Positions 6,001-9,000 of a DNA stretch of 64,000 nt are shown here, one piece after another. Position 1 is the stretch's first letter. Every line of letters begins with the position of its first letter. The DNA lies in contig JAYZEG010000095.1 in NCBI GenBank assembly GCA_036337435.1, positions 1 through 64,000 of the forward strand, given 5' to 3'. The DNA comes from Myxococcota bacterium (GTDB lineage Bacteria; Myxococcota_A; Bradymonadia; UBA7976; UBA1532). Made by a program: the position numbers.

Positions 6001-9000
6001 ATGAGCCTGGTATGCCTGACAGCGGGGCCTGGCTCTGGAACCAGAACCAGGGTGACAAAGTTTATATTTTCGTGGACTCGGCTGGGTTTGGCGGCCAAGG
6101 GCAATACGAGCTAGAAATTCGCAGAACAGGTCCATAGGGGCCATGCTTTCGTAGGCTGAAGACCGACTTTCAACCTGGCGTTGACCACATCCAGTTGCGA
6201 CCTACCATCGGCCTTCGTCTGTGAGGGTCGCTTGCGCCCAGACCCTGCGTCCAACACATTGAATTGCCCTTGGTCAATAAGCGCGTTAGATTTGTGGGTA
6301 TGGATATTAATCCCATAGGCGTGGCCGTCCCTTTCTTTCTTTTGCTGATAGGCATCGAATGGCTGGTTTTACGTAAGCAGAAAAAAGACGTCCGCATAAA
6401 CGATGCCATCACGGACATGAGTTGCGGTCTGGGCGATCAGACCATCTCACTCCTCGCCAAATCGACCGTCCTGATTCCCTACGTTGCGCTCCAAACTCAC
6501 TATGGGGCCGCCCGCTGGGCAATGGACTCGGTGTGGACATGGGTCATTGGCTTCATCGTCACAGATTTCTGTTTTTACTGGTATCATCGTTTCAGCCACA
6601 GGGTGAATCTCGGATGGGCAACTCACGCCGTTCACCACCAATCTGAAGAGTATAATTTAAGCGTCGCGCTTAGGCAGCCTTGGTTTAGCGTCTTCTACAA
6701 TTGGATTTTCTATCTGCCACTTGCATTTTTAGGCCTACCGGTCGAGGTCTACGCCACTTCATTGGCCTTTAACTTACTCTATCAATTCTGGATTCACACG
6801 GAGACCATTCGACGGCTTGGTGCTTTCGAATGGGTGTTTAACTCTCCGTCCCATCATCGCGTCCATCACGGCACCAATCCGGATTACATAGACAAAAACT
6901 ACGCAGGTGTGTTGATCATTTGGGACCGCCTTTTCGGGACCTTCCAAGATGAACATGAGCAAGTGCTCTACGGAACCCTCAAACCGTTGCGAAGCTGGAA
7001 CCCCATTTGGGCGAATGTGGGGCCGTGGGTCTACCTGTCAAAGTTATCTGCGTCGCAAGCGTCTTTCGTTGACGGGCTAAAAGTGTGGTTCATGCCACCG
7101 GAATGGACGCCAGACGGACCCATCGATCCAAAAACATTATTCGCAGGAGACGATCGCGGTTACAACGTGGACAAAGCATCCAAACTGCATGGCTACATTC
7201 TATTAAACTTGATCCTGACGGGCACCATCCTCGGGGTCTTGCTGACTTTTGAAAAGAGCATCGGTGTTCAGCATCAAATCGTCGGTGCTGTCTTTGTCGT
7301 CTTATCATTGAGTGTGTGGGCAGGTCTCTTTGAGGGCCGAAAGTGGGCTTGGCCACTGGAAGTGGTTCGCTTGATATACGGTGTGTGTGCTGCGAGCACA
7401 CTCTTTTTGATATAGGTGCTTCTCTTGTTTGACGGGCACTCTTTTTTTACTGGGTCTAAGGCGAGGTTACTCCGCTTATCAAAGGCCAAACTGGGGCTAT
7501 GCTTCGGCGCACTGGTCCTGGCTGGTTGCGCGGCATCGTCTCAGCATGTTGTTTTATCACTGCAGGACATCAGTTGCTCGAGTTGCGGTGTACACAGCGT
7601 TGACGTACTTCGTGGTGCGAAGGGCGTTCGACGCGTCCAGTTCCATAAGGTCAAAGCTGAACTCTCGATTCATTACGAGACGGGAAAACAGACACCCGAT
7701 GCTCTACAGAGGTTGGTCAGTAGTCTAGGTTATGGCGTCACAGTGGGTGCTGGCCAGGGTCGGTACAAAAAGCCCGGGCTAGAGAAGACCGATAAAGATG
7801 TCAGAACCATTCGTAATCCAGGTAGAGAACTGGATGTCGCGCGCTTGGCTGTGTCTGGTAAAGCAACGATCGTCGACTTCTTTGCCATTTGGTGTGGCCC
7901 CTGTCGACAAGTAGACGAATACGTCATGGGCATTCTCCAAAATGAGCCGGACCTTGCCTATCGTCGAATCGATATTGGCGATTGGGATTCTGTGATTGCA
8001 AAGCGGTATTTGGGCCGTGTTCCAGAACTGCCATTTGTCATTGTCTACGACCGAAATCGAGTTGAAGTCGGCCGACTATCCGGACTCCAGTTTGGGGCGC
8101 TAGACGAACTCATCGATAAGGCACTGACACAATGAGCCGACTGTTCGTTAGCATGGTGATCGCCGGTAGTGTTATCGCCTTTTCGTTTCCTGGGGTTGCC
8201 CTCGGCGGTGCCTGAAGTGGCTGAACAAACCCAAATCTCGCCGGTGGCGGGGATCACGGTGGTTATGGATTGCATCTTGGCAAGCTCAGACTCACCATAT
8301 CGACAATGGGGGCCAGGGTACGGGTGAGTCACACTGTACCATCGAATCAGTATGAGCCAGGTGTTGCCCAAGAACAGCAAGCGATGACCCATGCTCAAAC
8401 CCTTGATTTATTGAACACAGACCTCACCGTTTCGTATGTTTTTACTCAGAGGGTCGAGCTGTCTTTAGCGATCCCGTTAAGGCTGGTCAGAAGTTCCGTG
8501 GATTTTCTCGACCAGGCAGGGCGTAAACTCAACGGATTTGAAAGTATCCATCATCGAAACGAGACCATCACAGGCGTCGATGATTTGCGTCTCGAGGTCC
8601 GTCATCGGCTGTTGACGCCGGCGTCGTTAGATACGCTTCGTTTGGATGTGAAATACGGCATCAGTTTTCCGGTTGCCGCCATAGAACCGGACCCATTTGA
8701 GTTAGGCCGACGAGGTCGGAGACATCAACATGTGTTCTTTGGCACCGGGACGTTTGACCCGCTGGCGGCGGTCCAAATCGAATACGGGTTCGGAGAATTC
8801 GTGCTTGGCGGTGAGACGGAATGGACGGGTTCACTCTACGCCAATCGATATGGATACCGTGGTCCTATCTCATTGACCCAACGCGTTGCGATTGGTTCGT
8901 CCTTCGGCACGACCACGTGGTTCCCTAGCTTGGGGACAGAACTCTTCAAAGAGTTTCCTGCCAGGTGGTCCAATGAGGTTGCCGAGAACAGTGGGCGTTT

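What a model noticed while it worked through the whole genome (the two positions that open the first line are those of the whole stretch)
6300..7415. Bacterial alkylglycerol monooxygenase (AGMO) orthologue with every catalytic residue, plus pterin recycling but no aroma [...]
g03330 (371 aa) is an orthologue of animal alkylglycerol monooxygenase (AGMO/TMEM195), the only enzyme known to cleave the O-alkyl bond of ether lipids, described so far in animals. It keeps at identical spacing all nine histidines and all six further residues essential in human AGMO. The genome has pterin-4a-carbinolamine dehydratase (g00129), GTP cyclohydrolase I (g00974) and a PTPS-family protein (g00654) but no aromatic-amino-acid hydroxylase, so AGMO is the likely client of pterin recycling. 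With the ElbD-type ether-lipid synthase g01468 and a TMEM86-type lysoplasmalogenase homologue g00716 this is a full ether-lipid make-and-break set.
Evidence so far: Swiss-Prot best five hits all AGMO: human 45.9% and mouse 44.8% over 268 aa, zebrafish 39% over 359 aa, E 1e-72 to 7e-74, residues 9-359 of 371. Script: H96,H100,H109,H112,H113,H166,H186,H189,H190 and Q126,D198,N200,Y201,W208,D209 match human H132,H136,H145,H148,H149,H201,H221,H224,H225 and Q162,D233,N235,Y236,W243,D244 (list from the Fig. 2 legend of PMC7911779) with the same distances; the other FA_hydroxylase protein g00735 lacks both patterns. Pterin and ether-lipid genes from the tables. Homologues at E<=1e-40 in 171 of 401 sampled Myxococcota_A genomes.
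(Added by a program. Inside this text positions count along the whole contig: contig position 1 is position 1 of the stretch shown here. "Call 12" and the like, gene names such as g00115 and contig names such as C1 are that model's own, and its searches are not shown. The text may have been shortened before it was handed on; [...] marks where a part breaks off. The agent that wrote the report below was given it as the finding of a first reader that could run no searches.)

Follow-up and report, generated by a model that had tools for sequence, protein, structure and literature searches.

The report
Bacterial AGMO-like membrane oxygenase, Arg variant
This is an intact bacterial gene for a membrane iron oxygenase closely resembling the animal enzyme that breaks ether lipids, but it belongs to a very common bacterial family, has lost the one residue tied to the animal enzyme's pterin cofactor, and its real substrate is still untested.

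Summary
The ORF is real: window 6300-7415 (+), 371 aa, Pfam FA_hydroxylase. It is 38% identical over 360 aa to a primate AGMO, 45% over the 271-aa core.

Three points change the reading. (1) Those 15 residues are kept in nearly all 264 family members examined, so they do not discriminate. (2) Glu137, the only residue tied to tetrahydrobiopterin affinity in human AGMO, is Arg101 here. Arg is invariant in the 30 closest relatives. (3) Bacterial AGMO-like proteins are not new. JGI already names many "alkylglycerol monooxygenase", and the one characterised member (PRUB680) cyclises prodigiosin.

Of the "pterin genes", the PTPS-family gene is QueD beside queC/queE and GCH1 is housekeeping. Only PCD remains.

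Across 301 genomes of the phylum, AGMO-like genes co-occur with PCD (123/132 vs 105/169) and with YhhN lysoplasmalogenase homologues (94/132 vs 53/169). They do not co-occur with ElbD, aromatic hydroxylases or catalase. Long homologues are fused to lipases/esterases and twice to YhhN.

Verdict: a new member of a known family. Ether-lipid cleavage is the leading but unproven function (about 0.45), and pterin use is plausible but unproven.

The parts
6300..7415 (+). CDS of the AGMO-like FA_hydroxylase membrane di-iron monooxygenase (371 aa, P0001)
   Evidence: 70%-identical orthologue in the same-genus genome G151
6585..6638 (+). First two histidine boxes (H96-x3-H100, H109-x2-H112-H113), iron ligands by homology
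   Evidence: His invariant in 264 of 264 aligned homologues
6600..6602 (+). Codon of Arg101, at the position of human Glu137 (pterin-affinity residue)
   Evidence: invariant Arg in the 30 closest homologues; literature
6795..6797 (+). Codon of His166 (= human His201, the ninth essential histidine)
6855..6926 (+). Third histidine box (H186, H189, H190) and the D198/N200/Y201/W208/D209 block
7179..7412 (+). C-terminal three-helix membrane part (residues 294-371). It aligns with TM6-TM8 of animal AGMO. The protein ends where TM9 would begin.
   Evidence: TM ranges from the Fig. 2 legend of PMC7911779; Pfam AGMP_C not detected at E<=0.1
6181..6208 (+). Sigma-70-like promoter match upstream of the ATG (consensus match only)
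   Evidence: 3 sites found against 2.5 expected, so not above chance
7385..7401 (+). Terminator-like hairpin with a T-run at the very end of the CDS (consensus match only)
   Evidence: 3 sites found against 3.5 expected
7416..8135 (+). Downstream co-oriented thioredoxin-fold putative lipoprotein. The neighbour is conserved only within the genus.
8270..9163 (+). Downstream 297-aa ORF with no Pfam family, conserved beside the pair in the same-genus genome only

Best explanation
The gene encodes an integral-membrane, oxygen-dependent di-iron monooxygenase of the AGMO-like branch of the fatty-acid-hydroxylase superfamily. It sits in a large bacterial clade in which Arg replaces the Glu that follows the second iron-binding histidine.

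Proposed mechanism. The nine conserved histidines hold two irons. After a two-electron reduction, O2 is activated and the carbon next to the ether oxygen of a 1-O-alkyl-glycerolipid with a free sn-2 hydroxyl is hydroxylated. The hemiacetal then falls apart into a fatty aldehyde and glycerol or a glycerophospho head group. This is the same chemistry as animal AGMO. It would work beside the YhhN-type lysoplasmalogenase in ether-lipid breakdown.

Reductant. It may be a reduced pterin recycled by PCD. The pterin contact known from the animal enzyme is missing, so binding must differ or another donor is used.

Shown: an intact conserved gene, the ligand set, colinearity with AGMO, and the co-occurrence and fusion patterns. 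Inferred: substrate, products, electron donor.
For: Similarity to AGMO:
- 38% identity over 360 aa to primate AGMO, E 3e-80. The alignment includes the C-terminal membrane part. Identity is 45% over the core.
- All nine His and the six further loss-of-function residues are present.
- The only other curated hit is OlsE at 66.5 bits against a cut-off of 475.
- JGI names 13 of the 120 listed close homologues 'alkylglycerol monooxygenase'.

Domain fusions in the wider family (116 long homologues; checked):
- Abhydrolase_2 phospholipase/carboxylesterase
- Abhydrolase_1
- Beta-lactamase2 + Golvesin_C
- a lipid-binding SRPBCC domain
- YhhN, twice (P0500, P0511)
No fusion to a classical cytochrome b5, ferredoxin or flavodoxin partner was seen. 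One FAD-oxidoreductase (DAO) fusion exists (P0516).

Co-occurrence in 301 genomes of the phylum:
- YhhN in 94/132 AGMO-like-positive against 53/169 negative genomes; family-stratified odds ratio 5.4.
- PCD in 123/132 against 105/169; stratified odds ratio 5.6.
- Among genomes without an aromatic hydroxylase, PCD in 96/105 against 73/136.
- Comparators show no positive link: ElbD OR 1.26, aromatic hydroxylase OR 1.06, catalase OR 0.41.
- Arg-type genomes: PCD 26/27, YhhN 21/27, ElbD 17/27.

Own genome: it has an elb-like cluster, YhhN and PCD.

Literature: a bacterial YhhN protein has lysoplasmalogenase activity (PMC9052158, search listing only). Human E137A keeps activity, so the Glu is not essential for catalysis (PMC3304488).
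Against: - Arg101 replaces Glu137, the only residue linked to pterin affinity (an 18-fold Km change in human AGMO). The discoverers note that no other FA hydroxylase has Asp or Glu there.
- The 15 conserved residues are family-wide and carry no substrate information.
- The only characterised bacterial AGMO-like enzyme, PRUB680, cyclises prodigiosin instead.
- AGMO-like presence does not follow ElbD (44/132 vs 48/169). The family occurs in many phyla, which I do not recall (no call tested it) as ether-lipid producers.
- There is no conserved operon partner: the best recurrent neighbour is in 9 of 81 loci. In particular there is no aldehyde dehydrogenase. PCD lies within 3 kb in only 2 genomes, with unrelated genes between.
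- 109 of the 118 long homologues typed (mostly fusion proteins) are Glu-type and 4 are Arg-type.
- In a 375-sequence tree the protein falls in the half that does not hold the animal clade.
- Pfam AGMP_C is not detected, and the protein stops before TM9.
- Co-occurrence counts come from related genomes and hand-copied handle lists. 9 AGMO-like-positive genomes lack PCD, including 3 of 4 in one genus.
Confidence: 0.45

Rival explanations
1. Same fold and iron chemistry, but a different substrate. The enzyme would hydroxylate, or oxidatively cyclise, some other alkyl chain. Candidates are an acyl chain of a membrane lipid (ornithine lipid, ceramide, hopanoid or sterol-like lipid) or a secondary metabolite. 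It would have nothing to do with ether bonds.
For: - The FA_hydroxylase superfamily is functionally diverse.
- PRUB680, the one tested bacterial AGMO-like enzyme, acts on prodigiosin.
- The Glu137 hallmark is absent.
- There is no link to ElbD.
- The family occurs in many aerobic soil and water phyla.
- There is a weak OlsE similarity.
- The 'essential' residues are shared by all members whatever they do.
Against: - The OlsE score is far below its cut-off (66.5 against 475).
- There is no biosynthetic cluster around the gene here or in 80 related loci.
- The family's fusions are to lipases or esterases and to YhhN rather than to secondary-metabolite enzymes.
- The association with YhhN holds within families.
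Confidence: 0.4
2. The first reader's full version, which is nested inside the best explanation. The enzyme would be a true tetrahydrobiopterin-dependent AGMO orthologue. It would be the main client of PCD in this genome and would degrade the cell's own Elb-made ether lipids.
For: - PCD is present without a detected aromatic hydroxylase.
- PCD co-occurs with AGMO-like genes across the phylum.
- An elb-like cluster and YhhN are present in the genome.
Against: - Glu137 is replaced by Arg.
- The PTPS-family gene is QueD next to queC and queE, so no biopterin branch is shown.
- GCH1 is found in 11 of 14 control genomes.
- 73 of the 228 PCD-positive genomes have neither client. PCD is found in 6 of 14 control genomes against 1 for the hydroxylase. 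PCD also has a proposed molybdenum-cofactor role (table in PMC3223725).
- There is no association with ElbD.
- The genome is only 87% complete, so the absence of a hydroxylase is not proven.
Confidence: 0.15
3. A decaying or inactive relic with no catalytic role.
For: It is shorter than most homologues (371 aa against about 405) and lacks the last helix.
Against: - The frame is open and all iron ligands are intact.
- A same-genus orthologue is 70% identical, and a set of 370-375-aa relatives has the same length.
- The model is confident: pLDDT 80, pTM 0.78.
Confidence: 0.03

Closest known systems
Animal alkylglycerol monooxygenase (AGMO/TMEM195, EC 1.14.16.5)
   Same: - FA_hydroxylase core.
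- Eight-histidine motif plus the ninth His.
- Q162, D233, N235, Y236, W243 and D244 equivalents.
- Colinear over 360 aa including TM6-TM8; 38% identity overall and 45% in the core.
   Different: - Arg instead of Glu137: the local motif is HRVNLGWATH, against the animal consensus H-E-[ILV]-N-I-[FILM]-W-A-[AG]-H.
- No TM9.
- Pfam AGMP_C not detected.
- It lies in the other half of the family tree.
- Activity and cofactor are untested.
PRUB680 of Pseudoalteromonas rubra (AGMO-like prodigiosin cyclase; de Rond 2017. The paper is not held, so I know it only through PMC6667630, PMC7911779 and PMC7484904)
   Same: A bacterial, stand-alone AGMO-like membrane oxygenase encoded away from any cluster.
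   Different: PRUB680 acts on a pyrrole alkaloid in a prodiginine producer. I could not obtain its sequence, so identity, clade and the residue at the Glu137 position are unknown. I did not look for pig genes in this genome.
Glu-type bacterial AGMO-like proteins, including fusions to esterases/lipases, Beta-lactamase2+Golvesin_C and YhhN
   Same: Same family, 39-48% identity, same His and accessory residues.
   Different: They keep the animal-type Glu and often carry a hydrolase domain. The window's protein is Arg-type and unfused.
OlsE ornithine-lipid hydroxylase (NCBIfam NF052566)
   Same: FA_hydroxylase core, aligned over residues 51-217.
   Different: Score 66.5 bits against a cut-off of 475, so it is not a member.

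Membership tests
AGMO (TMEM195) | FA_hydroxylase domain with the eight-histidine di-iron motif | tested here: met
   Pfam PF04116 at 108 bits. H96, H100, H109, H112, H113, H186, H189 and H190 are present and aligned.
AGMO (TMEM195) | Ninth essential His (H201) and Q162, D233, N235, Y236, W243, D244 | tested here: met
   H166, Q126, D198, N200, Y201, W208 and D209 are present. These are also kept in 209 to 264 of 264 homologues of all clades, so they do not discriminate.
AGMO (TMEM195) | Glu next to the second His (human Glu137), tied to tetrahydrobiopterin affinity and absent from other FA hydroxylases | tested here: not met
   Arg101 aligns with Glu137. Arg is invariant in the 30 closest homologues. 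All 37 named animal sequences have Glu. Literature.
AGMO (TMEM195) | C-terminal AGMO domain (Pfam PF24858) and nine membrane helices | tested here: inconclusive
   PF24858 is not found at E<=0.1, while primate and carp AGMO score 108-125 bits. BLAST still aligns residues 299-359 with primate 338-398. The model shows three C-terminal helices and no ninth.
AGMO (TMEM195) | Groups with animal AGMO in a family tree | tested here: inconclusive
   In a midpoint-rooted FastTree of 375 sequences, animals fall in a half of 173 (support 0.61) and P0001 in the other half of 202 (support 0.866). Raw similarity to primate AGMO is typical of both types: 241 bits, rank 41 of 269; medians are 221 for Arg-type and 223 for Glu-type.
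AGMO (TMEM195) | Tetrahydrobiopterin- and O2-dependent cleavage of 1-O-alkyl ether of alkylglycerols or lyso-alkyl phospholipids | not testable with these tools
   This needs an enzyme assay.
PRUB680-type prodiginine cyclase | Acts on prodigiosin in an organism carrying a pig/hap prodiginine cluster | not tested
   The PRUB680 sequence was not obtainable and I did not search the genome for pig genes. There is no biosynthetic cluster next to the gene.
OlsE (NF052566) | Score over the curated equivalog cut-off | tested here: not met
   66.5 bits against 475.

The most novel reading that the evidence does not exclude
Many aerobic bacteria may carry an unrecognised ether-lipid breakdown module. 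It would comprise an AGMO-like membrane oxygenase for alkyl ethers, a YhhN lysoplasmalogenase for vinyl ethers and often a fused or separate lipase. The oxygenase would be driven by a reduced pterin that PCD recycles.

If so, this would give bacteria their first membrane-bound pterin-dependent oxygenase. It would explain a good share of the 'orphan' PCD genes in bacteria that lack aromatic amino-acid hydroxylases. The Arg-for-Glu clade of this window would then bind a different, perhaps anionic, pterin or a different donor.
Probability: 0.2. Interest if true: 0.75.

Novelty: new member of a known kind. Interest (0 to 1): 0.45.

Why it matters
[quoted passage not shown] In my library searches no paper reports that activity for a bacterial protein.

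If bacterial AGMO-like proteins do this, ether-lipid turnover in soils, sediments and predatory bacteria would gain an enzyme. The long-noted PCD genes without a hydroxylase client would gain a candidate client.

The family would also offer small, bacterially expressible models for a labile human enzyme that has never been purified or solved. The natural Glu/Arg/Gln variation at the pterin-linked position would be a ready-made experiment on cofactor choice.

For this particular gene the news is modest. It is one of thousands of such genes, and databases already label many of them AGMO.

Tried and rejected
Searches that gave nothing:
- A sequence search of PDB chains gave no match at E<=1.
- An AlphaFold2 model (pLDDT 80.1) searched with Foldseek against PDB gave nothing at E<=0.001.
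- VIA-align over 48,161 chains gave only generic helix-bundle matches to residues 289-371, best Z 9.2.

Gene neighbourhood:
- In 80 related loci plus the window, nothing recurs beyond the gene itself and its shadow ORFs. The best neighbour is in 9 of 81 loci.
- The thioredoxin-like lipoprotein and orf297 downstream are conserved only in the same-genus genome, not in three relatives at 49-54% identity.
- PCD lies within 3 kb of the AGMO-like gene in 2 genomes (G082, G108). The intervening genes (a PKD-domain protein, an HhH-GPD glycosylase) and the opposite strand in one case argue for chance.

Other negatives and gaps:
- The CarF/PEDS1 family (PF10520) was not found, but the control matched no genome, so that result is uninformative.
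- Promoter and terminator scans were no better than shuffles.
- The de Rond 2017 and Naponelli 2008 papers are not held. I know them only through citing papers.

Idea considered and dropped: that the Arg-type clade would lack the PCD association. It does not (26/27).
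Full report
**The object.** Window 6264-7415 (+) is one open frame. The ATG at 6300 gives a 371-aa protein, P0001, and the 30 closest homologues begin at the same methionine. 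Pfam finds only FA_hydroxylase (residues 81-214, E 5e-31). NCBIfam gives only a weak OlsE match, 66.5 bits against a cut-off of 475. No PDB chain matches by sequence. An AlphaFold2 model built on 30 relatives is confident (pLDDT 80.1, pTM 0.78) and almost wholly helical. Its long helices lie at residues 5-26, 33-68, 78-101, 130-144, 148-165, 294-316, 323-344 and 350-370. Fold searches found no solved relative. A same-genus genome carries a 70%-identical orthologue with the same two downstream genes. This is a live gene.

**Check of the observation.** I obtained named animal AGMO sequences by searching with a Physarum homologue. Against a 445-aa gibbon AGMO, P0001 is 38% identical over 360 aa (E 3e-80) and 45.4% over the 271-aa core. 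The gibbon protein carries H132, H136, H145, H148, H149, H201, H221, H224, H225, Q162, D233, N235, Y236, W243 and D244, exactly as in the Fig. 2 legend of PMC7911779. P0001 has the same residues at 96, 100, 109, 112, 113, 166, 186, 189, 190, 126, 198, 200, 201, 208 and 209.

**What the residues do and do not say.** I aligned 264 homologues of at least 300 aa.
- All nine histidines, N200 and D209 are invariant.
- Q126 is kept in 258, D198 in 261, W208 in 255 and Y201 in 209.

These residues define the whole AGMO-like branch, whatever its members do. They cannot show substrate or cofactor.

**The residue that was missed.** The mutagenesis paper behind the list (PMC3304488; abstract, results passages and the whole discussion read) singles out Glu137. 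E137A raised the Km for tetrahydrobiopterin 18-fold. The animal consensus is H-E-[ILV]-N-I-[FILM]-W-A-[AG]-H. The authors state that no other FA hydroxylase has Asp or Glu at that position. P0001 reads HRVNLGWATH, so Arg101 sits at the Glu137 position.
- Arg is invariant in the 30 closest homologues.
- Among the 269 homologues first collected, 176 have Arg, 61 Glu and 32 something else.
- All 37 named animal sequences have Glu. Physarum, which the AGMO discoverers list as having AGMO (PMC4758236 passage), has Arg.
- E137A kept measurable activity, so the Glu is not required for catalysis. Its loss still removes the one sequence argument for pterin use.

**Place in the family.** The family is huge.
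- All 8000 scored candidates reach E<=1e-10.
- 1773 representatives at 50% identity reach E<=1e-30.
- JGI already names 13 of the 120 listed close homologues 'alkylglycerol monooxygenase'.
- Related loci come from Myxococcota, Bacteroidota, Acidobacteriota, Gemmatimonadota and Gamma- and Betaproteobacteria.

I built a midpoint-rooted FastTree of 375 sequences. I left out sequences under 330 aa and 16 redundant Leptospira cluster members. In this tree the animals sit in a half of 173 sequences (support 0.61), with Physarum and Glu/Gln-type bacteria. P0001 sits in the other half of 202 (support 0.866; 164 Arg), inside a clade of 108 (support 0.934; 106 Arg). Raw similarity to primate AGMO is nevertheless typical of both types. 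P0001 scores 241 bits and ranks 41 of 269. The medians are 221 bits for Arg-type and 223 for Glu-type. So I call it a member of the AGMO-like family, not a special orthologue. P0001 and its nearest relatives (370-375 aa) end where animal TM9 would begin, and Pfam's AGMP_C domain is not detected.

**What is in print.** PMC6667630 and PMC7484904 say the same (passages). The primary paper (de Rond 2017) is not held. Searches for AGMO together with bacteria/homolog, myxobacteria, ether lipid/bacterial and prokaryot* turned up no report of a bacterial protein with alkylglycerol-cleaving activity. That statement holds only for the library searched.

**The genome claims.** The assembly is 4.38 Mb in 95 contigs and 87.3% complete.
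- No Biopterin_H match was found. This is not proof of absence.
- PCD is present on another contig, beside unrelated genes.
- GCH1 is present, but it is found in 11 of 14 control genomes.
- The PTPS-family gene lies head to head with queC and queE and scores best as QueD. It belongs to queuosine synthesis, not to a biopterin branch.
- A 1540-aa protein with NAD_binding_4, AMP-binding, PP-binding and Acyltransferase domains is flanked by Lar_N, HAD and epimerase genes. This fits my recollection of the Myxococcus elb cluster. The cluster layout is recalled, not checked in a paper.
- One YhhN gene is present.
- The second FA_hydroxylase is an unlike 199-aa protein.

**Co-occurrence test.** I searched the same 301 genomes of the phylum (including this one) with six queries. 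Positive genomes were:

| Query | Positive genomes |
|---|---|
| P0001, E<=1e-40 | 132 |
| PCD | 228 |
| ElbD-like protein, E<=1e-150 | 92 |
| Biopterin_H | 71 (60 at E<=1e-30) |
| YhhN | 147 |
| Catalase (control) | 52 |

I copied the handle lists by hand into scripts. Rates in AGMO-like-positive against AGMO-like-negative genomes were:

| Gene | AGMO-like + | AGMO-like − | Odds ratio |
|---|---|---|---|
| PCD | 123/132 | 105/169 | 8.3 (5.6 stratified by family) |
| YhhN | 94/132 | 53/169 | 5.4 (5.4 stratified) |
| ElbD | 44/132 | 48/169 | 1.26 |
| Aromatic hydroxylase | 27/132 | 33/169 | 1.06 |
| Catalase | 14/132 | 38/169 | 0.41 |

Within genomes lacking a strong aromatic hydroxylase, PCD is present in 96/105 AGMO-like-positive genomes against 73/136 negative ones.

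Results against the pterin link:
- 73 PCD-positive genomes have neither client.
- Families f19, f28 and f29 have PCD in all members, but AGMO-like in only 2/9, 11/18 and 1/10.
- Nine AGMO-like-positive genomes lack PCD, including 3 of the 4 in genus g52 and G020, one of the closest relatives.
- PCD is found in 6 of 14 control genomes against 1 for the hydroxylase.
- A role for PCD in molybdenum-cofactor metabolism has been proposed (table in PMC3223725).

Related genomes are not independent, so these are indications, not proofs.

**Residue type against co-occurrence.** I fetched the best AGMO-like hit of 129 of the 131 other positive genomes. G088 and G238 had no listed coordinates. Counting G000 as well, the types are 79 Glu, 27 Arg, 6 Asp, 16 other and 2 unreadable.

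| Type | PCD | YhhN | ElbD |
|---|---|---|---|
| Arg | 26/27 | 21/27 | 17/27 |
| Glu | 72/79 | 49/79 | 19/79 |

The ElbD excess in Arg-type genomes largely follows lineage. Families f1, f9, f18 and f36 are ElbD-rich, while in f30 only 2 of 7 Arg-type genomes have ElbD.

**Fusions.** Among 116 homologues of 651-2000 aa (E<=1e-30), roughly 70 carry Beta-lactamase2, usually with Golvesin_C. Six carry Abhydrolase_2 (phospholipase/carboxylesterase), two Abhydrolase_1 and two YhhN (P0500, P0511). A 535-aa relative carries a lipid-binding SRPBCC domain. Representatives were confirmed by hmmscan. No fusion to a classical cytochrome b5, ferredoxin or flavodoxin partner was seen. The one FAD-oxidoreductase (DAO) fusion, P0516, is Arg-type. 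Of the 118 long homologues typed (mostly fusion proteins), 109 are Glu-type and 4 Arg-type. Animal AGMO needs a free sn-2 hydroxyl (PMC7911779 figure legend). A fused esterase and a fused lysoplasmalogenase therefore fit glycerolipid and ether-lipid breakdown well. The evidence is for the family, mostly its Glu-type members.

**Neighbourhood.** Upstream lies a 2008-aa cysteine-rich repeat protein. Downstream are a thioredoxin-fold putative lipoprotein and an unknown 297-aa ORF, followed by an HflK/HflC-like pair on the other strand. Only the same-genus genome keeps this order. Across 81 loci no neighbour recurs in more than 9.

**Verdict.** This is a real, intact, ordinary member of a very large bacterial AGMO-like family.

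The pterin and ether-lipid ideas gain some independent support from co-occurrence with PCD and YhhN and from domain fusions. Four findings weigh against the strong claim:
- the Glu137-to-Arg change;
- the QueD identity of the 'PTPS' gene;
- the lack of any link to ElbD;
- the published prodigiosin cyclase.

My estimates are about 0.45 for ether-bond cleavage, about 0.4 for another alkyl substrate, and about 0.15 for the full tetrahydrobiopterin 'make-and-break' version.

Noticed in passing
window 111-6137 (+): A 2008-aa ORF made of dozens of cysteine-rich repeats of about 45 residues, followed by a non-repetitive C-terminal part. The last 512 aa have no Pfam match. The ORF starts 111 bases from the contig end.
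   Followed up: partly
window 7416-8135 (+): A putative lipoprotein with an LAGC lipobox-like signal. It has an N-terminal CxxC stretch and a thioredoxin fold with WCGPC. It starts directly after the stop codon of the AGMO-like gene. The pairing is conserved only in the same-genus genome.
   Followed up: partly
window 9245-11259 (-): Two overlapping Band_7/SPFH genes, an HflK/HflC-like pair.
   Followed up: no
P0217, P0251, P0290 (eukprot proteins): The Physarum polycephalum protein that the AGMO discoverers count as AGMO has Arg, not Glu, at the Glu137 position. Two further unnamed eukaryotic transcripts do too. So the hallmark Glu is not universal even among eukaryotic homologues.
   Followed up: partly
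P0411, P0219 and about 70 more: A large set of proteins of about 665-790 aa, some from Steroidobacteraceae, fuse a Glu-type AGMO-like domain to Beta-lactamase2 and a Golvesin_C domain. I did not find this architecture described in my searches.
   Followed up: partly
P0500 and P0511: Two proteins fuse the AGMO-like domain to a YhhN (lysoplasmalogenase family) domain. One of them also carries Acyl_transf_3 and SGNH domains.
   Followed up: partly
phylum sample, family f3: One family of 27 genomes has ElbD in 25, an aromatic hydroxylase in 25 and PCD in 26, but an AGMO-like gene in only 1. Ether-lipid makers in this family manage without the gene.
   Followed up: no
L012 (G000 contig 37, 56000-68000): An elb-like cluster: HAD hydrolase, Lar_N-domain protein, the 1540-aa multidomain reductase/ligase/carrier/acyltransferase and an epimerase-family reductase. 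ABC-2 transporter genes lie next to it.
   Followed up: partly
P0161 (747 aa): A homologue with two FA_hydroxylase stretches in one chain, which looks like a tandem duplication of the catalytic domain.
   Followed up: no
phylum sample: Many hits match only residues 1-275 of P0001 in open frames of about 300 aa. A short form of the family without the C-terminal membrane domain is therefore common.
   Followed up: no
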